Virus record (IMG/VR): IMGVR_UViG_3300005253_000377
Span: 1 to 50,207 of that record
Direction: 5' to 3' (one strand)
DNA length: 50,207 bases
Source: a virus
Taxonomy: Duplodnaviria; Caudoviricetes
Positions 1,146-22,067 of this stretch are shown here, piece by piece (position 1 is the first letter of the stretch; each line of letters opens with the position of its first letter). Position numbers and translations under genes: made by a program. Below the pieces are notes generated by a model that worked only from the letters and a program-made list of their open reading frames with translations, searched no databases and had not been told where the DNA came from.

Positions 1146-2027
1146 ATGCCAAAGATATATGAATTACCAGCAAGTTCTACTCCAGAGAATAGATCTTTAG
1201 TAATCGAACATGCACCACGTTTCAGGCAACCACAGCAGCAACAATCGCAAGGATCTGCTGATCCACGACAGATGATGGCTGGTCAGATGGACCAGGAACT
1301 TAATAGTGTGACGCAATGGTTCGATTCACAGGTGTCTGTTCTTGATCAAGGACAACTTGAACCTGATAAATATAAATCAGAATATATGAAATTACAACGG
1401 CAAGCTGCAAGTCAGCGTGTTGCAATTCAAGCTAAACATCAAGCTGCTGCTCAACAGATTAAGAATATGCAAGCATTAGTAGAAGATGGTATGCTCGCTC
1501 CAGAACAGATGCAAGCAACAATGCTGGTGATGGCTGGTGTTGATAGGGCACACGTCAAGGCAATGTTTGCACAACAAAAGCAAGCAAGCCCAAGAGTGCA
1601 GTTAAACAATGCTACGGCACTTATGAAAAAAGAAATAGCGTTCAGAAGTAATTTTGAAGATCATCGAAAAGACATTTTTGGAAAGGGTCTTTTCTATATA
1701 GATCCCGCAACAGGAAGAAAACGAAAAGCATCAGAAGCAGAACGAGATGAGTATAACAATTCAGCATCCCGATTAGGACAATTAGCTGAACGTCGAGCAG
1801 AATTATTCAACATCCTCACGCCATTAGAAAAAATGGCTGAGTCTGGAGCACAGGCCGTAGATAGATATGGTATGGGACGCGAGCCATTATCAACTGCTGG
1901 CTTTGGTGGTTTTGGATCTATGGGTGTAGCTCCACCGAGAAGAAAGCAACCAACACGTGAAGAGTTGATAAAACAAAGAACCAAAAAGGCATACGAGCAG
2001 GGTAGGAAACTGGGGTATTGGAATTAA
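1146..2027 (+). CDS. Putative internal virion/ejection protein
   Basis: 293 aa, Gln/Ala-rich and helical-looking, AGGAG RBS, lies between the fibre gene and a very large ORF as in podovirus ejection modules. Confidence 0.45.
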   Translation: MPKIYELPASSTPENRSLVIEHAPRFRQPQQQQSQGSADPRQMMAGQMDQELNSVTQWFDSQVSVLDQGQLEPDKYKSEYMKLQRQAASQRVAIQAKHQAAAQQIKNMQALVEDGMLAPEQMQATMLVMAGVDRAHVKAMFAQQKQASPRVQLNNATALMKKEIAFRSNFEDHRKDIFGKGLFYIDPATGRKRKASEAERDEYNNSASRLGQLAERRAELFNILTPLEKMAESGAQAVDRYGMGREPLSTAGFGGFGSMGVAPPRRKQPTREELIKQRTKKAYEQGRKLGYWN

Positions 2028-5000
2028 TGGGTTTTGAAACCTGGAAAAAAGACATTGAAAAAGAAGAACTAAGCGGGTTTGAGGCTTGGAAGGCTGACTT
2101 ACCTGAACCGAAGAAAGTTTATGAAGCCCCTACTGAATGGTTACGTACACAAGAAGTAGCAACCATACCTAAGAGCCTTACTACAATAGGGAAGGCTGGT
2201 CAGGCTATTACAGAAGCTGTTGCTGCTCCTGTCAGGACTATTGAATCTATGGTTGCCGGTGGCGTTGGTGGCATGATACGCATGAGTGCTGAAGCAGTAA
2301 CATTAGAGGCCGGGATAGACAGGGCAAACAAATTAATACCGGGTTATGGCACTCTCGTGGAAGGGCTTATGCGTAAGTATGGGTCTAAAAAAGCGTATTC
2401 ATTTTATGATAGGAAACTACAAAAACTTGCAGATGCTGGTAAAAAGATTTCTGATTATTGGGACGAGCAAGCAAACAAAGGTTGGGAAGCTCCTAACCCA
2501 GACATAGTTGAGGCCAAATGGAAAGATAGACCTATTAGTAAAACTGTGAGTGTTGTATCTTCCGGTTTAACATCTATAGGCACAGTTGTTGGGGCCACTT
2601 ATCTTACTGGATCTCCACATGTAGGGCTTGCGTTGTTAGCCAGTTCTGAAACAGGCGGCATGTATACGCGACTCAGGGATAGGGATGTTCCAGTTAATCA
2701 GGCTTCTAAACTCGCTCTGATGGCTGGAGCGTGGACCTATGCTACAGAGAAAGTACCCTTCGATAGACTGATGAAACCCGCTGCTCGTAGTATTGTGGGT
2801 GCTCTTAAACAGGCTGGATGGGAAGGAACACAAGAAGTAGCTGAAACTATAGGCCATAATCTTTTAGAATATTGGGGGTATAACTATAGAAAACCTGAAG
2901 ACATACCAACCGCTGTTAAGGCTATGTACGATCACGCGATGGACGGATGGTTTGATGCTTTGGTTGGTGGTGTTGGTGCTGGTGGAATAGCACATGTAGC
3001 TATGCCGCGTGGTGTCTCCAGACTCGGGACACAGATAACAGCATTAGATGATATAACAAAACAAATAGAACAATCTGATGCTCCACCACAACAGCAAGAG
3101 CAAGCATTACGATATATAGGTGATATAGAGACTAAGATTGAAGAGACGGTAGTGAATATGTTTCCTGATGAGATAAATAGTCAGGAATCGCTTGATAGAG
3201 TTGGTGATCGGATCGCTGCCGAACTTGGAATTGAAGGAATCTCATGGAATTGGGGGACAACAAAGAAAAGTCATATAGCATTTTACAGTCCACAAACAAA
3301 AGCAATTACAATTAATCCAGAGCATCCAATATTTACAAAAGATGTAGGTCAATTTTATACTATGCGTGGAGCGTTTGTTCCTATTAAAAATAAAACTCCT
3401 GGTAAATTAAACCAAGACTATCTTAAACGTGCAATTATACATGAACTTGGGCATAAAGCAGTACCTTCTTATATATCTAAAAACTATCAACAAATTGCTC
3501 ATTATGCCGAGTTCTTCGATTGGGTGAACGGCAATATTAGCAAGATGTTCGAGCAGACTCAACAGAATATGATCCCGCTTCATCGTGATGAGGCTATTGG
3601 CCCTATTACGACACCACCTACTGTAGAAGATATTACTGGTAAGACGACGGATGAAATAGAACACGCTGCTGAAGAAAAGACTGTTGACGTAATGAAACAG
3701 AATGTAGAAAAATATGGACCAAAAAAACTTACATTGATGTTCAATGAGTGGCTAAAATCACCCAAAGGTATCACAGAAAAAACTGAATTAGGCTTGCCAG
3801 AGGGTAATAAGTTTGAAGAAGTTGCTTTGTGGGAAGCGTTTAATAGATCTTTAATTCAACTCCCTGCACCTAAACCAGAGAAGCTAAAAAAGATAAAAAG
3901 AACTAAAAGAAATCTTACGGCGATGGCTCATAAGATAAAACGTGAAGCCGGACTTAGTGACAACGAATATAGTGACTATGCAGAAGCAGTAACTGGCAAG
4001 CGATCCATGAAAAACATGACTAAACAGGAACGAAATGAGTTCGTTGCGTTTCTCGAAGAGGGTTTCGGTTTCGTGCAGGAATTATCAAAAGAAGACTTCG
4101 ATATACCTATTACTGTAGCTGGTAAAGCAACAACTATGCGTCAAGTTTATAATACGGCATTAGTAGCTGTTGAAAAACTGAAAGATAAAAGTAAAATTCC
4201 AGATCTTATAAAAATTGGTGCTGATAGACCCGGCTATCTCCGGGGCTTAAAAAACTTTTTCTTCGGCATTGATAATACGCCTGTTTTTCATCTTGCAAAA
4301 ATACTTGATGGTGGTGTTGAAGGTGGTATATTTTCAGAAGTGCTCGACAAAGGAATTGAATATGGTAGAAAAACTACGGCTGCTCATACAAGATCTGTGA
4401 TGCACGCTGTTATGACGAGATTAGAAGAGTTCGGTATAACTTCTGCTGATTTGGCTAAAATGGGAAAGTCTTTAAATCCAAGATTACAAACTCATCAGAT
4501 GATAAGTGAAGGTGCAGCCACAGAAACGTTTAATGTATCATTAAACGATAAAACCTATGAAATGACTATGGCTAATTTGATTGACGTTTATCTAATGAGT
4601 GAACAAAAAGACGGAATGAGACATCTACTTTCTGGGGGCATGGTGATAAATGGAATCGAGACAGGTAAACTATCAGAAGATCAGATCCTTGAACTAAGAA
4701 CAAGAGTAGATGATAGTGCAAAAGCTATTCAAGTAGTTGCTATAATATCAGAGGTCCAAGAATTAATCTGGAAACCGTCATTAAACCAAACCTCGAATCG
4801 GCTTGAAGGTAAAGATATAGCTACTGTAGAAAATTGGTGGGGTCTTGAAGTTTATATGCCGAAGATCTTAGCAGGTAAAGTTAGAACAGGAAAACTTGGT
4901 CAGTTTAGTACCAATTTTATTGAGAATAAAAGTATCCTTAAAGATAGAACCAGAAGCAGAGCACCGTTGATTGTGCGTGATGTTTTCAGACGGTTTAACG

Positions 5001-15104: not shown

Positions 15105-15272
15105 CTATGGCCACTGACCTGTTTCTGCACATAACCTTGAATGACGTAGATCACCAGAATTATCTTCCCACTCATCCCTTAATTGCTTTTCAGGAACATG
15201 AGGGTATTCTGCTTTATATTTTATAAACTCACTTTCTGGTTTATGATTATAGAAGTTTATTTTATCTGTCAT
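15105..15272 (-). CDS. Hypothetical 55-aa protein (not in the ORF track)
   Basis: MTDKINFYNHKPESEF..., ATGA-coupled to the HD gene. Confidence 0.55.
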   Translation of the reverse strand: MTDKINFYNHKPESEFIKYKAEYPHVPEKQLRDEWEDNSGDLRHSRLCAETGQWP

Positions 15273-15868
15273 ACTTCTTTTTCCTCTTGTAATACTGCAT
15301 ATATGTCATCAACTTTACGACTGGCACAGTAGTCGGCCAGGTGGATTAGATTGGCGAAAGCTGTACTTGGCCTGTAAAAGGGATCGATTGTCCAAACACC
15401 CATGTGACCAGCAATTCCATCAAATATTCTCTCGCAAGATTCAAGACTTAATTCATTGTCAAGTTCTTCGCTAACTATTCTCTGTGCCAGCGTTACTCCG
15501 TGTGTCCCTGTTACACCAGATTCAAGCGGACGACCATTTGGACCCAAACCTTTACCGTTCTTGAGCAGATCATGTAGCAGAAGTGTTGCAACAACCTCAT
15601 CTTGTAATGTAGGAATATCTTTCAATTCAGGCTCTTCACTCAACACCCTCAGCAATTCAATCCCCCACCACACAGCGAGCTTAGTATGCCGAACCAGACC
15701 ACCTTCACCGAGTGACACCTGCGGGTGGTACTTACCTGACGTGCTGCATGGGCAGGTCCAGAAGTAGTCCGGGCAGAGTTTATCGAACACGTCGAGGACG
15801 AATTGTTTGGTTTCTTTACTCTTGATTAACGATAGTTCGTATTCAAAAATTTTATCTACAAAATTCAT
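15269..15868 (-). CDS. HD-domain phosphohydrolase
   Basis: GKYHP, GGLVRHT, LLHDLLK, HMG, HLADY. Confidence 0.85.
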   Translation of the reverse strand: MNFVDKIFEYELSLIKSKETKQFVLDVFDKLCPDYFWTCPCSTSGKYHPQVSLGEGGLVRHTKLAVWWGIELLRVLSEEPELKDIPTLQDEVVATLLLHDLLKNGKGLGPNGRPLESGVTGTHGVTLAQRIVSEELDNELSLESCERIFDGIAGHMGVWTIDPFYRPSTAFANLIHLADYCASRKVDDIYAVLQEEKEV

Positions 15869-16326
15869 ACAAAATCTCCAAAATAATGATATTCGAGTTC
15901 TTCAACTCCATGTATTATGAGATAGATACCACCAGCATAAGTAACATCATGTTTTCGTTTCTGCTGACCAGGACTAAGCCTACCACCTTTGCCAGCTTTA
16001 CATTCAATCTCAAAATGTGTACCATAGTCACCAACTATGCCGATGATGTCACCAGCACCCTTGATACCATACACACCCCACTGTCCGCGATCATTCTGAA
16101 ACGAAGCAGCATCATGACGGTTGCACATAATATGGTGTCGGTGTAACCACACCAGACAGTCATGCACTACATCTTTTTCAGGATAAGGACAACGTACTGG
16201 CACAACTGACTTAGTCGGAATTGAACCATCTTTGTATGTACTGCGTTTCACTTTCTTACCCTCGTTTATACACTTCACCGCATCAGCGATGTCAGCGTAC
16301 TGTAGTGCTTTGGTGCGTCGTTTCAT
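15865..16326 (-). CDS. VRR-NUC-like endonuclease / Holliday junction resolvase
   Basis: GAGDIIG...FEIECKAGKGGRLSPGQ...AGGIY. Confidence 0.8.
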   Translation of the reverse strand: MKRRTKALQYADIADAVKCINEGKKVKRSTYKDGSIPTKSVVPVRCPYPEKDVVHDCLVWLHRHHIMCNRHDAASFQNDRGQWGVYGIKGAGDIIGIVGDYGTHFEIECKAGKGGRLSPGQQKRKHDVTYAGGIYLIIHGVEELEYHYFGDFV

Positions 16327-16332
16327 GTTAAT

Positions 16333-16581
16333 TTACCAGCGAAATGGTGGCTCAAATGGGTGCACCAAAAATGCTGCCCTAAGTTGATCTAATAATCTTT
16401 TATTTGCTGGTTTATATGTAGCATAATAACTCTTCCATAAATGTTTACGCCATCCTGGTTCAAATTTAACGTCATAAAATCCGGGCTTAGGACCGGGCTT
16501 ACTCTTCAATAACTCAGCCGGACACGCAATCGTAGCCCCGCAAACAATACCCAGTTTTTTAAGGAAGCCTCGTCGGTTCAT
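16333..16581 (-). CDS. Small protein with a twin-arginine signal-like N-terminus
   Basis: MNRRGFLKKLGIVCGA, ATGA overlap. Confidence 0.6.
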   Translation of the reverse strand: MNRRGFLKKLGIVCGATIACPAELLKSKPGPKPGFYDVKFEPGWRKHLWKSYYATYKPANKRLLDQLRAAFLVHPFEPPFRW

Positions 16582-16862
16582 TCTTTCAACGGCCACTCAC
16601 AAGCCAGTCCCTCACAATCATCATCCTCTTCATCATCTATCCAGCCACGTGCGGCGAGTGCTGCATCTAATATGTATTCTGATGAACTGGTTCTATCATA
16701 TCTATCATAAATATCATTATCATCCCAATCACTTTCGAGCACAGCAATCTGAGCGTCAACACTACCCAGATTATCGTCGCCGAACATACTTGTTGGACGT
16801 ACATTTGGCCGGACTGTTTTTAACGCTTCAATTTCTTTTTGAATCTGTTCTTTAGTTTTCAT
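16578..16862 (-). CDS. Hypothetical acidic protein
   Basis: GAAAGG RBS before MKTKEQ, first gene after the promoter at 16887-16915. Confidence 0.6.
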   Translation of the reverse strand: MKTKEQIQKEIEALKTVRPNVRPTSMFGDDNLGSVDAQIAVLESDWDDNDIYDRYDRTSSSEYILDAALAARGWIDDEEDDDCEGLACEWPLKE

Positions 16863-16886
16863 TTTGGTTCCTTTCATCATTTTAGT

Positions 16887-16915
16887 ACTATACCACAATC
16901 CAACTTCTCAGTCAA
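16887..16915 (-). promoter_or_regulatory. Sigma70-type promoter (TTGACT-17-TATAGT, extended -10 TG)
   Basis: GCTTGACTGAGAAGTTGGATTGTGGTATAGT, core identical to the promoter at 30067. Confidence 0.8.
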
Positions 16916-16916
16916 G

Positions 16917-17825
16917 CTATTTCTTATAATAAGGTGTCAACTCACCCTCACCAGCTATCGGTAAACTCTTTGCCCAGCTTGGCTTAACACAAAATATATC
17001 AATCGCTTTTTCTAAAGATTTCTCTGCATTTTTTTCCTGCAATAGCACCACAACCTCATCATGACTGCGAAGAATCACAGACACATCAGCAGCGTCCAAT
17101 CGCAGCACACCCTCAACGAATATGTCACGAGCAATCGCTTGGACCACGTTCTCAGTAATCGAGCCACCCCAGAGATAATACTTCTTGTACTTGAGCTTAC
17201 CACCACGTCTATCTTTGACGATCCGGGCCTGGGGGTACTTCAGACAACGAGTGGATGGTAGCTGGATATTAACCATACCGTTGTCGTTCCAAAAGCGGAA
17301 TATAAAATGATCAACCATAAGCTTTTTAGCAAGCTCTGAACAAGGTTCTTTCTTTTTTGAAAGCCACTGATGATTTAAAGTATATGTTGTTATTTGATTA
17401 GGATACTTCACCACCCACCTGAAAGCTTTCTCAATGTTGGTCCAGAACTTAGAAATTTTAGGATATTTTTTATGATATAGTTTGCCTAATTTTTGAATAA
17501 AAACAAAATTATACTCGCCAGAATCAAAATGCGGTTTAAGATCAGCATTTGATAAACAGCGATCAAAGAACTTCTGATCTCCCATTCCATAACCGCGTCC
17601 GAGGATAGCATCTTTACCAAATCCCCTTCGGATAGTAAGAATTTTCCCGATCTCTTTTGGATCAGTTTTGCGTGCTTTACGTACAGGTACGCCGAATAAA
17701 GTAGTAGCAAACTCACTATATATATCTTCTCCATCTGCAAATCCTTTCAATAGGTCGTCTTGCCCGGCAATCCAACTGAGGATGCGAGCTTCTATCTGAG
17801 CTAAGTCTATAATACCGAGGATCAT
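16917..17825 (-). CDS. polA: Family A DNA polymerase, C-terminal (polymerase) fragment
   Basis: Motif A IIDLAQIEARIL, motif B RGFGKDAILGRGYGMG, ENVVQAIARD, motif C SHDEVV. Start set at MILGIID by the ATGA overlap. Confidence 0.9.
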   Translation of the reverse strand: MILGIIDLAQIEARILSWIAGQDDLLKGFADGEDIYSEFATTLFGVPVRKARKTDPKEIGKILTIRRGFGKDAILGRGYGMGDQKFFDRCLSNADLKPHFDSGEYNFVFIQKLGKLYHKKYPKISKFWTNIEKAFRWVVKYPNQITTYTLNHQWLSKKKEPCSELAKKLMVDHFIFRFWNDNGMVNIQLPSTRCLKYPQARIVKDRRGGKLKYKKYYLWGGSITENVVQAIARDIFVEGVLRLDAADVSVILRSHDEVVVLLQEKNAEKSLEKAIDIFCVKPSWAKSLPIAGEGELTPYYKK

Positions 17826-17998
17826 ATTTTGTTTTTCCATAAATGATTAAAAAATCTTTTTATACGAACTAACCATTTTTTGTCGTAACATTCTACACAT
17901 AAGTATCCAGCAATATGAGCGAGCATAGCAAGACTCCATCGTTCATAATAACCACCCAAGCCTTTGTGGAGTTCTTTTTCACACCACCAACACTTCAT
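17822..17998 (-). CDS. 58-aa Cys-rich (CxxC...CxxC) protein inserted within the split polymerase (not in the ORF track)
   Basis: MKCWWCEKELHKGLGGYYERWSLAMLAHIAGYLCVECYDKKWLVRIKRFFNHLWKNKI, ATGA overlaps at both ends. Confidence 0.7.
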   Translation of the reverse strand: MKCWWCEKELHKGLGGYYERWSLAMLAHIAGYLCVECYDKKWLVRIKRFFNHLWKNKI

Positions 17999-18039
17999 TT
18001 CGGTGCTCTCAATTTAAAGTCTATAATTCCGAGGATCAT
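17995..18039 (-). repeat. 14-codon mini-ORF duplicating both polymerase junction sequences (MILGIID + LRAPK)
   Basis: ATGATCCTCGGAATTATAGACTT is 22/23 identical to the start of the pol C-fragment. LRAPK echoes LKAPK at the end of the pol N-fragment. Confidence 0.85.
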
Positions 18040-18042
18040 TAT

Positions 18043-18480
18043 TTACCTATTCCTGCAATTTTCGTCATGGGTTACAAACCTAATGTTTCCAGGTTCATAG
18101 TTACCATCATTATTAATTCTATCAATTTGCAATCCATGTGGATTAACTTGTAATTCATTAATAATGTAATCTATAAATTCGTTAGCATTTTTGAACAAAC
18201 ATTTAATGCCACGGCCACCATAGTTTTTATATTGTTTATAATTTGGATTAGTACAGCGTTTCTTCATTTCGTGAAAGCGTTGGCGAAGATAACCCATAAA
18301 AGTTTTTCTATATTTTTTCATATATTTAGCATGTTCAATTTTATGAGTCTGTTTATACTTTCGAGATTTTTCTTTAAGACAAACTTTACAACACGAGCTA
18401 AGCTTGCTTTTCAAATGATTATCTTTATAAAATTCAGATAAAGATTTAGTTTTCTTACATTTAGTGCAAGTTCTTTTCAT
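18043..18480 (-). CDS. HNH-family homing endonuclease-like protein
   Basis: N-terminal CTKC...CKVC, MKKRC.NPN...YGGRGI, QIDRINNDGNYEPGNIRFVT..NCRN. Confidence 0.85.
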   Translation of the reverse strand: MKRTCTKCKKTKSLSEFYKDNHLKSKLSSCCKVCLKEKSRKYKQTHKIEHAKYMKKYRKTFMGYLRQRFHEMKKRCTNPNYKQYKNYGGRGIKCLFKNANEFIDYIINELQVNPHGLQIDRINNDGNYEPGNIRFVTHDENCRNR

Positions 18481-19652
18481 CCTTTTGGAGCCTTTAGTAA
18501 ATTTCTTATTTTTTGTAATACCTCTGGAGTTCCAGCACCAGCACGGCCACGCCCAGGTAAGTTCTGCATGTTCACATTCTGTGTACCACTGTCACGCCCA
18601 GTATGCCCACCGTAGTAAAGTAGTGGACAGGCGAGCTTACCCCCCCGAAGTTCAGCCTGTCGTCGCATAGATTCCACTCGTTTGATCCAAGTAGGCCACG
18701 ACTTTGCAGCCTTGCGAGCCAGAGCAAGCTCGCGTACTATTGCTTCTGGATGTATGAGAAGCCGTTGAAAGAACAGATCGTCTTGAGCAAGTGCTGGAAT
18801 GTTGCCAATCTTACCAGCTTTCATCCCGACAGTTTCACCTTTAGGAAGCACGCTGGCTAATGCTTTAACAAATTGTGCTGATCTGATCGTTTCAATTATT
18901 GCTTTATGTTTTTTTAATTTATATTTCCACACCCATTCGGCTTTATTAAGAGCACTATATAATTCAATTTCCATCTCTGTTATAATCTCTTTAGCAAGCT
19001 CGAAGTCAAACTCGAACTGCGGGATCAGGAACATCTCCAGGGTGTGTTGCTGGAGTGGCAACTCCACCGCTGGATTCGTAAGAAGTGGGAGTAGTAATCT
19101 AAATAACAAAGTAGTGGCAATGGTGTCACCACGACAGTATTCTGCCGCTTTCTGTTGCTGCGTAGGCGACATGTCTCGCCAGTGTAAACCTTTTATCCAT
19201 GTATTGTCACCTTTTTGTACTCCTATATCATAACATTCACACAGTTTCTCAAGTTTATTTGGTCGCCTGGAGTCTTCGTGTCTCGCCAAATTCAGGGTAT
19301 CCACAGTATACTTCGGCGTGATGCCGAACTTCTCATGTAGAATCATCGCATCGAACATGAGGTTCTGGCCGACGAGTGTGCAGCCTTTGAGGTTCTTACC
19401 ATAATTATTCTGTAAGAAAGATATTGCATCTTCGATACGTTCTGGTGTAAAAAAACAACAGTTTTCAGGATCGCCAAACGGTTGCGTTGCTACAAACGCA
19501 CCCAGCCCACTGAACTCGAACCGATCATCGCAGATGTACTCGATGTAGCTGAGGTTGCTCAGCGAGTAATCCTTATCGAAGTAACTCTCGAAGTCGAGCG
19601 TGACGGCTGTTGTTGGGTAATGATATTTAGCTAAGATCTGTTGCCAGTTCAT
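18477..19652 (-). CDS. polA: Family A DNA polymerase, N-terminal fragment (3'-5' exonuclease + thumb)
   Basis: ExoI TLDFESYF, QNLMFD, YCRGD, HTGRDSG..NMQNLP, ends IRNLLKAPKG immediately before where motif A should follow. Confidence 0.9.
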   Translation of the reverse strand: MNWQQILAKYHYPTTAVTLDFESYFDKDYSLSNLSYIEYICDDRFEFSGLGAFVATQPFGDPENCCFFTPERIEDAISFLQNNYGKNLKGCTLVGQNLMFDAMILHEKFGITPKYTVDTLNLARHEDSRRPNKLEKLCECYDIGVQKGDNTWIKGLHWRDMSPTQQQKAAEYCRGDTIATTLLFRLLLPLLTNPAVELPLQQHTLEMFLIPQFEFDFELAKEIITEMEIELYSALNKAEWVWKYKLKKHKAIIETIRSAQFVKALASVLPKGETVGMKAGKIGNIPALAQDDLFFQRLLIHPEAIVRELALARKAAKSWPTWIKRVESMRRQAELRGGKLACPLLYYGGHTGRDSGTQNVNMQNLPGRGRAGAGTPEVLQKIRNLLKAPKG

Positions 19653-20107
19653 AAACTATATCCAGCTAATACAATTTGATAAGTTATGTTTACAGGGGGC
19701 CATTCTAAATTAATGCCTATACTTTTCATTGTAGATGTTACATTTACGCCATCACCTTCAGGACAGTTTATAATTATAAATTTTTTATGTTCTAATAAAA
19801 ATTTATGAACATATTCTTTTAATTGTTTCCTGGCCGTCGGTTGCCAATAAAGACAACATTCAATCTGACGTTTTGACCAATTAGAATGTTTTTCTTTCAT
19901 TTTTTTGCAATGAGCAGCAAAATTAAAAACACTCCAAATAACAAATACAGGTTTGCTTAAATTAATTTTTTCATCAATGGTTCTGCTGATTGGTGGACAT
20001 CCAACTTTATGATTATAATTGGGACAGCCTTTAGGATGATTAGTATATGCTCTAAAACAGAGCTGTCGTACACTAAAATCTAAAATTGGATTAATTTGTT
20101 TATACAT
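19649..20107 (-). CDS. DUF2284-like predicted metal-binding protein
   Basis: C...GCPNYNHKVGCPP and PEGDGVNVTST motifs. Confidence 0.55.
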   Translation of the reverse strand: MYKQINPILDFSVRQLCFRAYTNHPKGCPNYNHKVGCPPISRTIDEKINLSKPVFVIWSVFNFAAHCKKMKEKHSNWSKRQIECCLYWQPTARKQLKEYVHKFLLEHKKFIIINCPEGDGVNVTSTMKSIGINLEWPPVNITYQIVLAGYSL

Positions 20108-20294
20108 TTTTTGTACTTCCAAGATGATCATGGTGATAACTTGCAATACTAAAAACATTACAAAGTGGATATTTCATAATTAACGCATCTTTATATTCAA
20201 CACATAATAGATCACCTTTTGTATAAACAGCAATCACATTAATACATTTTTTAGGTGTTGATGATGTGTGAAAAATTATTTCAATCTTCATCAT
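20100..20294 (-). CDS. Hypothetical protein
   Basis: 64 aa, coupled ORF. Confidence 0.55.
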   Translation of the reverse strand: MMKIEIIFHTSSTPKKCINVIAVYTKGDLLCVEYKDALIMKYPLCNVFSIASYHHDHLGSTKNV

Positions 20295-20731
20295 TCCCCC
20301 TTCGGCGGCTTAAACTCGTAACCAGCTTCATCAGAACCCTGGATTGGCAGATCAAGCTGATGTGAAGTAATAAACTCGATCTTATCAAACAACGTTTCCA
20401 ATGTCTTCACACACTTTTGTCGCTGCGTAGGTGATAAGTCTTCTTCACAATACTTGTGCCAGGTTTCGATCATAGTTGTTACTAACGCAAACAAACATTG
20501 TGCAGCGTTCTTTTTCTCAGCCTTACTACCCTTCTTAGATTCATAGGGAAACTCGACTACATCTTTAATTTTACCACCCAGCGGCTTCCAGATGTTCATA
20601 TATCTATCTACAACCTGGATGTTTCGTGCCGAACCTTTGAATAGTTTATACATAGATTGTATAGTTCGGTACACACGCTTGCGTAGTTCAGAATTATGTT
20701 GTACTTGAATTTCATCAACTAATGTCATCAT
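20291..20731 (-). CDS. Hypothetical protein
   Basis: 146 aa with AGGAG RBS. Confidence 0.65.
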   Translation of the reverse strand: MMTLVDEIQVQHNSELRKRVYRTIQSMYKLFKGSARNIQVVDRYMNIWKPLGGKIKDVVEFPYESKKGSKAEKKNAAQCLFALVTTMIETWHKYCEEDLSPTQRQKCVKTLETLFDKIEFITSHQLDLPIQGSDEAGYEFKPPKGE

Positions 20732-20858
20732 ATTCTCCTGATATTAATACAATACCGTCATCTAAGGTTTCTATATCAACAATGTCACCACCATGAACTT
20801 TCACTGAGGCTTCCTGGTCGTATTCATCGAGTTCTGCTCTAAGCTGGCCGACATTCAT
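20715..20858 (-). CDS. Hypothetical 47-aa acidic protein (not in the ORF track)
   Basis: MNVGQLRAELDEYDQEASVKV..., GAAAGG RBS. Confidence 0.55.
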   Translation of the reverse strand: MNVGQLRAELDEYDQEASVKVHGGDIVDIETLDDGIVLISGEYDDIS

Positions 20859-20917
20859 TTCAATATCCTTTCATTAAGGAGATATGCGAGGATTTAAATC
20901 CTCGCACAGTGTCCACG

Positions 20918-21106
20918 TCATGAAGACTTATTACGAAAAGTATTACCAATTCGCAACCCATCTCTTTTAATTAAACCACGTTTCATTAATGCTTTGTATT
21001 TCTTTTCATAAGTAGCAAAACCAATCCTACCATTCATATACAAGTCACGAAGGTTCTGCTCTTCTCTGGTTGTACTGCGTGGTCTGCGTTTATCGCCCTT
21101 ACTCAT
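20918..21106 (-). CDS. Hypothetical basic protein
   Basis: MSKGDKRRPR N-terminus, TAATG coupling. Confidence 0.6.
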   Translation of the reverse strand: MSKGDKRRPRSTTREEQNLRDLYMNGRIGFATYEKKYKALMKRGLIKRDGLRIGNTFRNKSS

Positions 21107-21363
21107 TAGACTGACTCCACAATAATCTCAGTAATTTTACCAAGAACTCTTGTAATAGGTTCATCTCCCCATCCACCAGCCTCGCTAAACCACCAGGCAT
21201 CATTATTAGTTAAGAGCATTAATGTGTTTCCTGCATCATTAACTTTTTCAATAACAATAGCTTTTACAGAAGAATCAAGCTGAACTACTGTCCCTGGTTT
21301 GAGGTTTTGAAGTTTAATTTCTTTTATTCTTAATTGAATTGGTTTTTTGATTGTGATTTTCAT
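21106..21363 (-). CDS. Hypothetical protein
   Basis: 85 aa, similar layout to 26047..26268. Confidence 0.55.
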   Translation of the reverse strand: MKITIKKPIQLRIKEIKLQNLKPGTVVQLDSSVKAIVIEKVNDAGNTLMLLTNNDAWWFSEAGGWGDEPITRVLGKITEIIVESV

Positions 21364-22067
21364 TTTCTACTCCTGAATTTACTATCGTGATACTTCTCAC
21401 CCTTGCCGCAACACATTATAATATGCTGTGGTATTCCATCAATAACTACAGCAGCTGATAATACTGACCTGATAGTAGCAAACTTACCATAAGCAAACGC
21501 CATAGATTTATCATTTATTAATGACCCTACATCCATCCCAAACATCCTGCGTAATGGATTCACAAGCCACTTAATTCCACCAGCAGCATGAAAATGACCG
21601 AGAACACATGACATTCCCATTTTCTTCATTTTATTATATGCTGGATACATACTTGTACCTGCACCCTCACCATGTGAGTACAAAACACCATCAATGATAA
21701 ATTCATGTCCCCAAGTCCACCCAGGTGTTTTCCAAGTTTCTCCATATCCTCGAATAAACTGTTTAGGTATGTTGACAGATTCAGCAAGTCTTACAATTCG
21801 TCTGTCATGGTTTCCTAAACATATCCTTGCTTTTGGAAATGCTCTATGCCACCTTTTAAGACATTTAGAAGCAAGTTTGAACTCATCTTTTGGCCCCGGC
21901 ATTTCGGGATGGTGTGCGTGAAACGAGATTGAGTGCCAATCTGTCACATCACCAATGAATATGATTGTATCACATTTGTGTTCTTTTTTTATAGCTTTAC
22001 AAAACTGTAAAGCACCAGGGCGTGTAGATGGTTCATGTAAATCTGGAATTATGAGAACTCGGCTCAT
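21360..22067 (-). CDS. Calcineurin-like metallophosphoesterase
   Basis: PDLH, GDVTD, GNHD, SHG, GHFH motifs in canonical order. Confidence 0.9.
   Translation of the reverse strand: MSRVLIIPDLHEPSTRPGALQFCKAIKKEHKCDTIIFIGDVTDWHSISFHAHHPEMPGPKDEFKLASKCLKRWHRAFPKARICLGNHDRRIVRLAESVNIPKQFIRGYGETWKTPGWTWGHEFIIDGVLYSHGEGAGTSMYPAYNKMKKMGMSCVLGHFHAAGGIKWLVNPLRRMFGMDVGSLINDKSMAFAYGKFATIRSVLSAAVVIDGIPQHIIMCCGKGEKYHDSKFRSRK

What the first reader, a model, noticed from the sequence alone, without database searches (positions are those of the whole stretch)
16917..19652. Family A DNA polymerase split just before motif A by an intron-less, fully coding cassette array
Seen: the N-fragment ends ...IRNLLKAPKG-stop and the C-fragment begins MILGIIDLAQIE, which together read as one contiguous PolA. 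The roughly 650 nt between them is almost entirely ORFs (HNH nuclease, 14-codon mini-ORF, 58-aa CxxC protein), linked by ATGA overlaps or a 3-nt gap. No non-coding space is left for a group I/II intron core, and the stop codons exclude an intein. Established: phage PolA genes are usually interrupted by self-splicing introns (SPO1-type), and non-splicing splits by free-standing HNH genes are known (Aeh1 nrdA/mobE). Inference: a two-subunit PolA whose split point has become a tolerated insertion site, with translational coupling relaying ribosomes to the C-fragment.
Basis: partly seen in the sequence, partly recalled or inferred. Interest (0 to 1): 0.9.

Follow-up and report, generated by a model that had tools for sequence, protein, structure and literature searches.

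The report
Phage DNA polymerase split by stacked cassettes
A marine-sediment phage carries its only DNA polymerase as two separate genes, and the gap between them holds a mobile nuclease gene and a small zinc-ribbon gene joined by a recombination scar; many related phages use the same gap to carry other extra genes.

Summary
On the minus strand lie a PolA N-fragment (18477-19652), an HNH gene (18043-18480), a 14-codon mini-ORF (17995-18039), a 58-aa CxxC gene 'Z' (17822-17998) and a PolA C-fragment (16917-17825). They are joined by three ATGA overlaps and one 3-nt gap. No intron model matches, the insert RNA is not unusually structured, and there are no intein residues: N-end plus C-start align residue for residue with intact relatives.

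The split is not a one-off. The window sits in an all-split clade of 16, and both halves evolve under purifying selection (dN/dS 0.11-0.17). Relatives carry different cargo at the same loop: HNH alone, another Zn-ribbon ORF, a decayed remnant, an Endonuclease VII nuclease, three kinds of methyltransferase, or nothing (stop/start overlap).

New here: the mini-ORF is a scar. Its head is a 28-nt duplicate of the C-fragment start. Its last 15 nt are identical to the 3' end of the N-fragment gene of two relatives, not to the window's own. So two single-cassette alleles recombined into a stack.

Verdict: a functional two-piece PolA, a PolA analogue of HEG-split nrdA and gp43. It is a new variant of a known kind. 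Activity, lack of splicing and HNH cleavage are untested.

The parts
18477..19652 (-). PolA N-fragment gene (391 aa): 3'-5' exonuclease plus the polymerase part up to the loop before motif A; ends LLKAPKG-TGA.
   Evidence: ORF. PF01612 E 2.6e-6. phrog_17 positions 669-1005. 14 stand-alone homologues of 390-421 aa at 79-88% identity. dN/dS 0.12 against L107.
18043..18480 (-). Free-standing HNH-family homing-endonuclease gene (145 aa). ATG overlaps the N-fragment stop (ATGA). GC 28.5% against 41% for the genome.
   Evidence: phrog_374 HNH endonuclease E 4.1e-26. No Pfam match. Homologues lie at the same site (L107 53%, L121) and beside or inside pol genes elsewhere (L010, L014, L015, L016, L021). 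Composition.
17995..18039 (-). 14-codon mini-ORF, a recombination scar: 7 codons copied from the C-fragment start (MILGIID) fused to the last codons of an N-fragment gene from a different allele (..LRAPK-stop).
   Evidence: Sequence. Repeat D1. The 15-mer at 17998-18012 occurs once in the window (0 expected) and otherwise only at the 3' end of the N-fragment genes of L108 and L109. 5 of 14 near relatives' N-fragments end LLRAPK-stop.
18017..18044 (.). Upstream copy of the 28-nt direct repeat (duplicated C-fragment start with its leader).
   Evidence: family D1: 25 of 28 identical to 17803-17830, spacing 214 nt.
17803..17830 (.). Downstream copy of the 28-nt direct repeat (the real C-fragment start).
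   Evidence: family D1.
17822..17998 (-). Z: 58-aa CxxC...CxxC zinc-ribbon-like protein of unknown function. Start overlaps the mini-ORF stop; stop overlaps the C-fragment start (both ATGA). GC 34%.
   Evidence: ORF. Homologues P0002 and P0003 at 68% identity. P0176 and P0177 by exhaustive profile search, with invariant C34, C37, W21, M25, A27. No phage-database match. Low-confidence model: two strands plus a C-terminal helix.
16917..17825 (-). PolA C-fragment gene (302 aa from ATG 17825): motif A (MILGIID..QIEAR), motif B region, motif C (HDE).
   Evidence: PF00476 E 3.6e-10. phrog_17 positions 1011-1230. Profile positions 5-49 align to Taq polymerase residues 606-650. D7, E12, K71, D256 and E257 invariant in 49 stand-alone C-fragments. 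dN/dS 0.11-0.17.

Best explanation
The phage's only recognisable DNA polymerase is made as two polypeptides that assemble non-covalently. One carries the exonuclease and the N-terminal part of the polymerase. The other carries motifs A, B and C. The gene is cut in a surface loop a few residues before the motif A aspartate.

The break is old within this lineage and is tolerated, and it now serves as a docking site for extra genes. In this genome it holds two cassettes in tandem: a free-standing HNH homing-endonuclease gene and a small zinc-ribbon gene (Z).

The stack arose when two different single-cassette alleles recombined: N|HNH|C, and N|Z|C from a relative like L108 or L109. The event left a scar, the mini-ORF, made of the first 7 codons of the C-fragment joined to the last codons of the donor's N-fragment.

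All five reading frames are chained by ATGA overlaps or a 3-nt gap. Ribosomes are therefore probably passed on by termination-reinitiation, which would keep the two polymerase halves co-expressed.

Shown: the anatomy, absence of intron and intein signatures, recurrence and cargo diversity at the site, the scar, and purifying selection on both halves. Inferred: assembly and activity of the heterodimer, homing activity of the HNH, the order of events, and translational coupling.
For: 1. Anatomy and contiguity.

2. No intron. There is no Rfam intron hit at E<=10 over 16000-20500. The 251 nt covering mini-ORF and Z fold no better than shuffles (z = +1.15). Only 3 nt are non-coding.

3. No intein or split intein. 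N-end plus C-start equal the intact sequence in length, with the ancestral Tyr codon replaced by the ATG.

4. A conserved two-gene state.
- The 14 N-fragment homologues at 79-88% identity are all 390-421 aa and end at the junction.
- 49 of the 50 C-type proteins fetched start 0-19 residues before the motif A Asp; P0019 starts later.
- In a FastTree of 137 rows the window lies in a 16-row all-split clade (support 99).

5. Purifying selection among split genomes: dN/dS is 0.12 for N and 0.11-0.17 for C in 7 pairwise comparisons of the window, L107, L108 and L109. Catalytic residues are invariant.

6. It is the only polymerase. There is one PF00476 match and no PF00136 match in the complete 50,207-bp record.

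7. Different content at the same loop in relatives.
- L107: HNH alone.
- L109: an unrelated 61-aa CxxC ORF.
- L108: 146 nt with decayed CxxC remnants.
- L121: HNH of the same family.
- L131: Endonuclease_7 (E 9e-19).
- L136: N6_N4_Mtase (E 2e-33).
- L137: MT-A70 (E 1e-31) plus HNH (PF01844).
- L141: a 185-aa ORF with only a weak C-5 methylase hint.
- L002, L115, L132, L127: no insert, stop/start overlap.

8. The scar: 28-nt repeat and the 15-mer identity to the N-gene ends of L108 and L109.

9. Foreign composition of the cassettes: GC 28.5% and 34% against 40-45% for the pol halves.

10. The HNH differs much more from L107's (53%) than the flanking pol halves do (88-89%).

11. Heterodimer model: ipSAE 0.86 against a best control of 0.01. 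The mark was reached by 58 of 80 solved complexes and 2 of 110 mismatched pairs. The runs share >=94% of contacts and partner pLDDT is >=87. The pass may come from memory of solved single-chain PolA structures.

12. Independent contigs bridge all junctions.
Against: There are no RNA, protein or activity data.

Pfam HNH models do not match the nuclease. Its assignment rests on PHROG profiles and on homologues annotated by others.

Most relatives are intact at this site (139 of 152 unique assessable loci), so the split is not required for function.

The state of protein-only relatives rests on gene calls whose DNA I could not see. One no-insert case (L127: GTG start, 11-nt overlap) could be a 1-nt sequencing frameshift, and L114 contains Ns.

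The donor allele N|Z|C itself was not found as DNA.

HNH genes lying between pol pieces in Pectobacterium phage CB7 do sit in introns that splice (RT-PCR; passages read). Absence of a detectable fold is therefore not proof of no splicing.

dS values of 0.45-1.4 are partly saturated.
Confidence: 0.78

Rival explanations
1. The 651-nt insert is a self-splicing group I or II intron whose ORFs overlap the ribozyme core. The mature mRNA encodes one polymerase.
For: HNH genes between DNA polymerase pieces are often intron-borne. In phage CB7 two such introns in the polymerase gene splice (passages read).
Against: - No intron family matches at E<=10.
- The 3' 251 nt fold worse than shuffles.
- 648 of 651 nt are in ORFs.
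- The C-fragment has its own ATG in place of the ancestral Tyr codon, and the N-fragment stops exactly at the junction, in all 16 clade members.
- Relatives are split with zero insert (L002, L115, L132), where no intron can exist.
- Inserts at the site are unrelated to each other.
Confidence: 0.04
2. A 'fractured gene': the halves carry split-intein parts and are ligated by protein trans-splicing around a free-standing endonuclease gene.
For: This arrangement (split inteins flanking a free-standing HEG) was described from metagenomes by Dassa et al. 2009 (abstract seen in the listing). Real inteins occur in this pol family (L021, L034).
Against: The N-fragment ends and the C-fragment begins with polymerase residues that align one to one with intact relatives. 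There is no extra ~100-aa N-intein or ~35-aa C-intein, and no Cys/Ser/Thr nucleophile context.
Confidence: 0.01
3. The polymerase gene is dead: it was disrupted by mobile DNA, and the phage relies on a host polymerase.
For: The gene is interrupted. No expression data exist.
Against: - dN/dS is 0.11-0.17 on both halves among split genomes.
- Exonuclease and polymerase catalytic residues are invariant.
- The split state is kept across a 16-member clade with C-fragments down to about 71% identity.
- Stop/start overlaps are kept tight.
Confidence: 0.05
4. The tandem cassette array is an assembly chimera of two co-occurring alleles (HNH allele and Z allele) in the metagenome.
For: Both allele types exist in similar samples. 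The join lies in a short repeat, which is where assemblers make mistakes.
Against: A 727-nt contig from a different sample covers 17772-18498 with 0 differences. A 274-nt contig covers 17807-18080. A 6646-nt contig at depth ~40 spans everything. No alternative joint at the repeat was reported. Caveat: all are from one study, and they are contigs, not raw reads.
Confidence: 0.03

Closest known systems
Aeromonas phage Aeh1 nrdA split by mobE (Friedrich et al. 2007, recalled; Crona et al. 2011, PMC3045599, abstract read; review PMC2988022, passages read)
   Same: A free-standing mobile endonuclease gene splits an essential replication-related gene into two genes. The products reassemble without RNA or protein splicing.
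   Different: In Aeh1, novel tail sequences created by the insertion are essential for assembly (abstract). Here no tails exist: the halves end and start on native residues. The target here is PolA, the site holds two cassettes plus a scar, and the split is shared by a clade and recurs with many kinds of cargo.
Split PolB gp43 (43A/43B) of T4-related Aeromonas phages 25 and 44RR (Petrov et al. 2010, known only through review PMC2988022, passages read)
   Same: A replicative DNA polymerase is encoded in two genes. One phage has a HEG (seg) in the gap and a relative has a different spacer (IC-UTS). The review says the halves co-purify and are active, and suggests the HEG may have invaded an already split gene.
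   Different: That is family B, not family A, and the split point differs. Two phages are involved there, against dozens of lineages here. No stacked cassettes or exon-end scar were described in the passages I read.
MEP401-type OM43 phages: split DNA polymerase with a small unknown ORF (PMC10580990, passages read)
   Same: [quoted passage not shown] The authors leave open whether it is an intron.
   Different: These are not close relatives: no phage-database hit to the window's C-fragment exceeds 31% identity among the rows listed. I did not see that paper's figure or supplements, so I cannot say whether the split point is the same. No HEG, scar or cargo diversity is reported in the passages read.
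SPO1/SP82-type group I introns with HNH (I-HmuI) in PolA genes, and the CB7 polymerase introns (CB7: PMC7344957, passages read; SPO1: recalled, and reference titles seen)
   Same: An HNH endonuclease gene interrupts a phage DNA polymerase gene near conserved motifs.
   Different: Those inserts are ribozymes that splice. Here no ribozyme is detectable and each piece has its own start and stop.
Inteins in PolA of this same family and of Salmonella Jerseyviruses
   Same: The same HNH family (37-38% identity) and the same host gene family are involved.
   Different: Those are in-frame inteins at motif B with the HNH read in another frame. The window has no intein.

Membership tests
Family A DNA polymerase (with 3'-5' exonuclease) | Match to the DNA_pol_A and DNA_pol_A_exo1 profiles above the curated cut-offs | tested here: met
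   PF00476 scores 39.8 bits (cut-off 34.3) on the C-fragment. PF01612 scores 27.8 bits (cut-off 23.6) on the N-fragment. phrog_17 covers both, end to end.
Family A DNA polymerase (with 3'-5' exonuclease) | Conserved catalytic motifs A (D..QIE.R), B (R...K...G.GYG) and C (HDE), and exonuclease acidic residues | tested here: met
   D7, E12, R14, K71, D256 and E257 are invariant in 49 C-fragments. D20, E22, D101, Y172 and D176 are invariant in 16 N-fragments. Motif A aligns to Taq 606-650. Motif names and roles are recalled.
Gene split by a free-standing homing endonuclease ('genes in pieces', mobE/nrdA type) | Endonuclease ORF lies between two halves of a gene that is contiguous in relatives, with its own start and stop, not in frame with the host gene | tested here: met
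   intact relatives.
Gene split by a free-standing homing endonuclease ('genes in pieces', mobE/nrdA type) | No self-splicing RNA or protein element around the endonuclease gene | tested here: met
   No Rfam hit at E<=10. RNA fold z = +1.15. No intein residues. This is computational only.
Gene split by a free-standing homing endonuclease ('genes in pieces', mobE/nrdA type) | Patchy distribution of the endonuclease gene among close relatives | tested here: met
   Of 4 near relatives with DNA at the site, the window and L107 have an HNH; L108 and L109 do not. Homologues sit at other places near pol in L010, L014, L015 and L016.
Gene split by a free-standing homing endonuclease ('genes in pieces', mobE/nrdA type) | The endonuclease cleaves the endonuclease-free allele near the insertion site, and the split enzyme is active | not testable with these tools
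   Needs cleavage assays and co-expression. Indirect support only: dN/dS and the complex model.
HNH endonuclease superfamily | Match to curated HNH profiles | tested here: inconclusive
   PHROG HNH families match (phrog_374 E 4e-26, phrog_3377 E 3e-24). No Pfam family matches even at E<=1.
Group I / group II intron | Conserved ribozyme core detectable by covariance model | tested here: not met
   7 hits, all snoRNA/CRISPR/other noise at E 1.4-9.3. No intron family.
Intein or split intein (fractured gene) | Extra in-frame intein blocks at the break, flanked by nucleophile residues | tested here: not met
   Junction alignment. For contrast, true inteins in L021 and L034 were recognised.

The most novel reading that the evidence does not exclude
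The loop before motif A of this PolA family acts as a shared cargo dock inside an essential gene. Once the gene is split, the two conserved exon ends serve as portable homology arms. Homing endonucleases, DNA methyltransferases and small Zn-ribbon genes can then be swapped, and even stacked, between co-infecting phages. Stacking leaves exon-end scars like the window's mini-ORF.

This would resemble an integron-like exchange point that needs no integrase. It would be driven by HEG breaks and kept expressed by translational coupling to the polymerase. The recurring Zn-ribbon ORFs might be partners of the split enzyme or of the nuclease rather than junk.
Probability: 0.3. Interest if true: 0.7.

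Novelty: new variant of a known kind. Interest (0 to 1): 0.55.

Why it matters
Splitting of essential phage genes by free-standing homing endonucleases is known from a few model cases: nrdA, topoisomerase and PolB gp43.

This locus and its relatives extend the phenomenon to family A polymerases, and they add three points.

- One surface loop just before the catalytic motif A has changed between split and intact at least 11-15 times on the tree. It can apparently be cut without adding assembly tails.
- A whole clade keeps the two-gene polymerase under purifying selection. That makes it a natural design for split PolA enzymes.
- The gap is reused for varied cargo, and the scar in this genome is direct sequence evidence of how cassettes are stacked by recombination between alleles.

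The finding also offers an explanation for the unexplained 'split DNA polymerase with a small ORF' reported in marine phage isolates.

Tried and rejected
- Intron search: Rfam at E<=10 gave only noise. RNA folding of the 3' insert showed no excess structure.
- Promoter and terminator scan of 16500-20400: counts were no higher than in shuffles, and nothing lay inside the insert on the minus strand except weak promoter-like sites elsewhere. Not used.
- DNA search of the phage database with the whole locus: it found only an 82-nt stretch of the HNH 3' end, in Salmonella and Staphylococcus phages. No close phage exists there.
- Z: no tblastn hit in phages at E<=1. No Pfam hit better than E 0.25. 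A PHROG hit only at E 1.4e-4 to a family of unknown function. The Atlas gave only unnamed viral clusters. The structure model had mean pLDDT 65, too poor to search with, so no fold search was run. Z and the 61-aa ORF of L109 show no BLASTP similarity.
- N-fragment profile against PDB sequences: no hit.
- Expression: no RNA holder was listed for the stretch, so nothing can be said about transcripts.
- Literature: five full-text searches found no paper describing a family A polymerase split at motif A by a free-standing HEG, apart from the OM43 phage note. This is not proof of absence. Subscription papers (Petrov 2010, Friedrich 2007) were not readable, and supplements and figures were not seen.
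- Cultured phages checked for the same split: Bacteroides phage F2 and Streptococcus phage Javan405 are both intact.

Rows dropped.
- Tree: left out were loci under 39% identity, C-parts under 230 or over 419 aa, C-parts with X, C-parts at contig edges, P0014, P0019, unfetched proteins, and two duplicates (P0005 = L107, P0011 = L109).
- Counts come from the best 80 hits of each scan, so they are not a random sample.
Full report
**What is there.** The window is a complete 50,207-bp virus record from marine sediment metagenomes. Five chained ORFs lie on the minus strand.

- PolA N-fragment, 18477-19652, 391 aa, ending LLKAPKG-TGA.
- HNH ORF, 18043-18480, 145 aa. Its ATG overlaps that TGA.
- A 3-nt gap.
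- A 14-codon mini-ORF, 17995-18039.
- A 58-aa CxxC...CxxC ORF 'Z', 17822-17998. Its ATG overlaps the mini-ORF stop.
- PolA C-fragment from ATG 17825 to 16917. Its ATG overlaps the Z stop.

Pfam and PHROG place the exonuclease in N and motifs A-C in C. The record has one PolA match and no PolB match.

**The halves are one polymerase cut in a loop.**

- In Pseudomonas phage KPP25 the two halves match adjacent in-frame stretches of one gene.
- In 20 of the 23 IMG/VR relatives printed, the junction reads ...LL.AP.GY.L.I.DSAQIEAR in one frame.
- The same holds in the full-length proteins P0139-P0142, P0146 and P0147.
- The window reads ...LLKAPKG | MILGIIDLAQIEAR, so the ATG replaces the ancestral Tyr codon and nothing else is added or lost.
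- C-fragment profile positions 5-49 align to Taq polymerase residues 606-650. The cut is therefore a few residues before the motif A strand. The catalytic role of that Asp is recalled.

**Not an intron, an intein or an artefact.**

- Infernal against 4227 Rfam families at E<=10 gave seven noise hits and no intron.
- The 251 nt covering mini-ORF and Z fold worse than shuffles (z = +1.15).
- There are no extra residues that could be split-intein parts. True inteins in relatives were readily seen: L034 has a LAGLIDADG intein at HTGRWSG|C, and L021 has one at motif B.
- A contig from another sample of the same study covers 17772-18498 with no difference. A 6646-nt contig of the probable source run spans the whole stretch.

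**The split is a lineage trait under selection.**

- Word-indexed searches of 5.8 billion proteins found stand-alone N-fragments. All 14 hits at 79-88% identity are 390-421 aa and end at the junction.
- They also found stand-alone C-fragments. Of the 50 fetched, 49 start 0-19 residues before the motif A Asp.
- Scans returned DNA for three near relatives and nine more distant split loci.
- Of 152 unique loci where the site could be judged, 139 are intact and 13 split. The sample is biased, being the best 80 hits per scan. L114 contains Ns and L127 may be a frameshift.
- A FastTree of 137 C-parts (59 split, 78 intact) needs at least 15 changes of state, with 11 forced by well-supported branches. 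The window lies in a 16-row all-split clade with support 99, next to three intact sequences.
- The state of protein-only rows rests on gene calls, and the tree is a quick one with several long branches flagged.
- Among the window, L107, L108 and L109, dN/dS is 0.12 for N and 0.11-0.17 for C. The HNH gives 0.31.
- Catalytic residues are invariant.
- A complex model of N with C scored 0.86 against 0.01 for the best of three controls. The mark was reached by 58 of 80 solved complexes and 2 of 110 mismatched pairs, with >=94% shared contacts and partner pLDDT >=87. Halves of a fold solved many times as one chain can pass from memory.

**The gap is a cargo site.** Content at the same loop differs between relatives.

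| Locus | Content between N and C |
|---|---|
| L107 (86-88% identical pol) | An HNH only, 53% identical to the window's |
| L109 | An unrelated 61-aa CxxC ORF (no BLASTP similarity to Z) |
| L108 | 146 nt with decayed CxxC remnants |
| L121 | An HNH of the window's family |
| L131 | An Endonuclease_7-type nuclease |
| L136 | An N6_N4 methylase |
| L137 | An MT-A70 methylase plus a PF01844 HNH |
| L141 | A 185-aa ORF with only a weak C-5 methylase hint |
| L002, L115, L132, L127 | Nothing; stop and start overlap by 4, 1, 8 and 11 nt |

P0133 has a Zn ribbon fused in frame to the N-fragment end. In all 12 split loci where the preceding stop could be read, the C start lies between -14 and +4 nt of it. 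This fits translational coupling but does not show it.

The cassettes in the window are AT-rich: GC 28.5% and 34% against 40-45% for the pol halves.

**The mini-ORF is a scar.**

- Its first 23 nt, with a few leader bases, form the top direct repeat of the region: 18017-18044 against 17803-17830, 25 of 28 identical. That repeat is a second copy of the C-fragment start.
- Its last 15 sense nucleotides (17998-18012) occur once in the window, with none expected. Among 187 loci they occur only in the window's own copies and at the very 3' end of the N-fragment genes of L108 and L109.
- The window's real N-fragment end has a different nucleotide sequence.
- Five of 14 near relatives' N-fragments end ...LLRAPK-stop, exactly like the mini-ORF. 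Six others end one residue later, like the window's real N-fragment.
- The simplest reading is that an N|HNH|C allele and an N|Z|C allele recombined illegitimately between the C-start of one and the N-end of the other. That stacked both cassettes.
- The N|Z|C donor was not recovered as DNA.

**Z.** Z is a real but rare small protein family. Two clusters have 68% identity, and two more were found by exhaustive profile search of 1.84 billion representatives. The cysteines and a W.L[SA]M.A motif are conserved. Its function is unknown, and the model was too weak to use.

**Comparison with the literature.** The review PMC2988022 (passages) lists mobE in nrdA, mobA in the topoisomerase gene, and the split PolB gp43 of phages 25 and 44RR. 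For gp43, a HEG or an untranslated spacer sits between 43A and 43B, and the halves co-purify and are active. Crona et al. (abstract) show that the Aeh1 NrdA halves need insertion-derived tails. No such tails exist here. PMC10580990 (passages) notes split polymerases with a small unknown ORF in OM43 phages and leaves the intron question open.

**Verdict.** This is a family A counterpart of known HEG-split genes. Three features are new: a recurrent, tail-less split point, a wide range of cargo, and a sequence scar documenting cassette stacking. Activity, absence of splicing, nuclease specificity and coupling all await experiment.

Noticed in passing
L190 (Salmonella phage vB_SalS-S10, OL770276.1) 1313-4411 and 2746-3489; L021 2841-5609 and 4316-4963: In two PolA genes an in-frame canonical intein at motif B contains, in a different reading frame, a complete ORF (247 and 215 aa) for the same HNH family as the window's. 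Both frames stay open for more than 640 nt. This looks like an overprinted free-standing endonuclease gene inside an intein.
   Followed up: partly
L004 3394-5894; L016 3713-5840: There is a second split point of the same polymerase family at about N-fragment residue 244. L004 has an Endonuclease_7 gene in the gap (E 3e-17). L016 has a 34-nt gap and no gene. Many 428-448-aa proteins fit this form.
   Followed up: partly
L034 about 2990-4012: A LAGLIDADG-containing intein is inserted in frame at HTGRWSG|C, about 35 residues upstream of the window's split point.
   Followed up: partly
L001 1589-4363: An intact relative has a Mom-family domain (PF25680, E 4.7e-42) fused to the N-terminus of the polymerase in one 924-aa ORF.
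   Followed up: no
window about 17290-17360 (C-fragment residues ~155-178): The window's C-fragment has a 23-residue insertion (LNHQWLSKKKEPCSELAKKLMVD) that L001 and L002 lack. Near relatives carry other sequences of varying length at this spot, so it is a hypervariable loop of the polymerase.
   Followed up: no
protein P0133 (421 aa, no DNA seen): One near relative's N-fragment runs on in frame into a 30-residue CxxC...CxxC zinc ribbon instead of stopping at the junction. A cargo ORF may have become fused to the polymerase half.
   Followed up: no
L127 3985-4000: The N stop and a GTG start of the C-fragment overlap by 11 nt. A single extra base would restore an intact LLRAPDNIF... reading. 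This may be a sequencing frameshift, a very young split, or programmed frameshifting.
   Followed up: no
window 15269-22067, minus strand: The polymerase array sits in a long run of tightly packed or overlapping minus-strand genes: metallophosphatase-like, DUF2284, pol, a gene homologous to those downstream of pol in L001 and L021, and an HD-domain protein. The N-fragment start overlaps the upstream DUF2284 gene by 4 nt.
   Followed up: no
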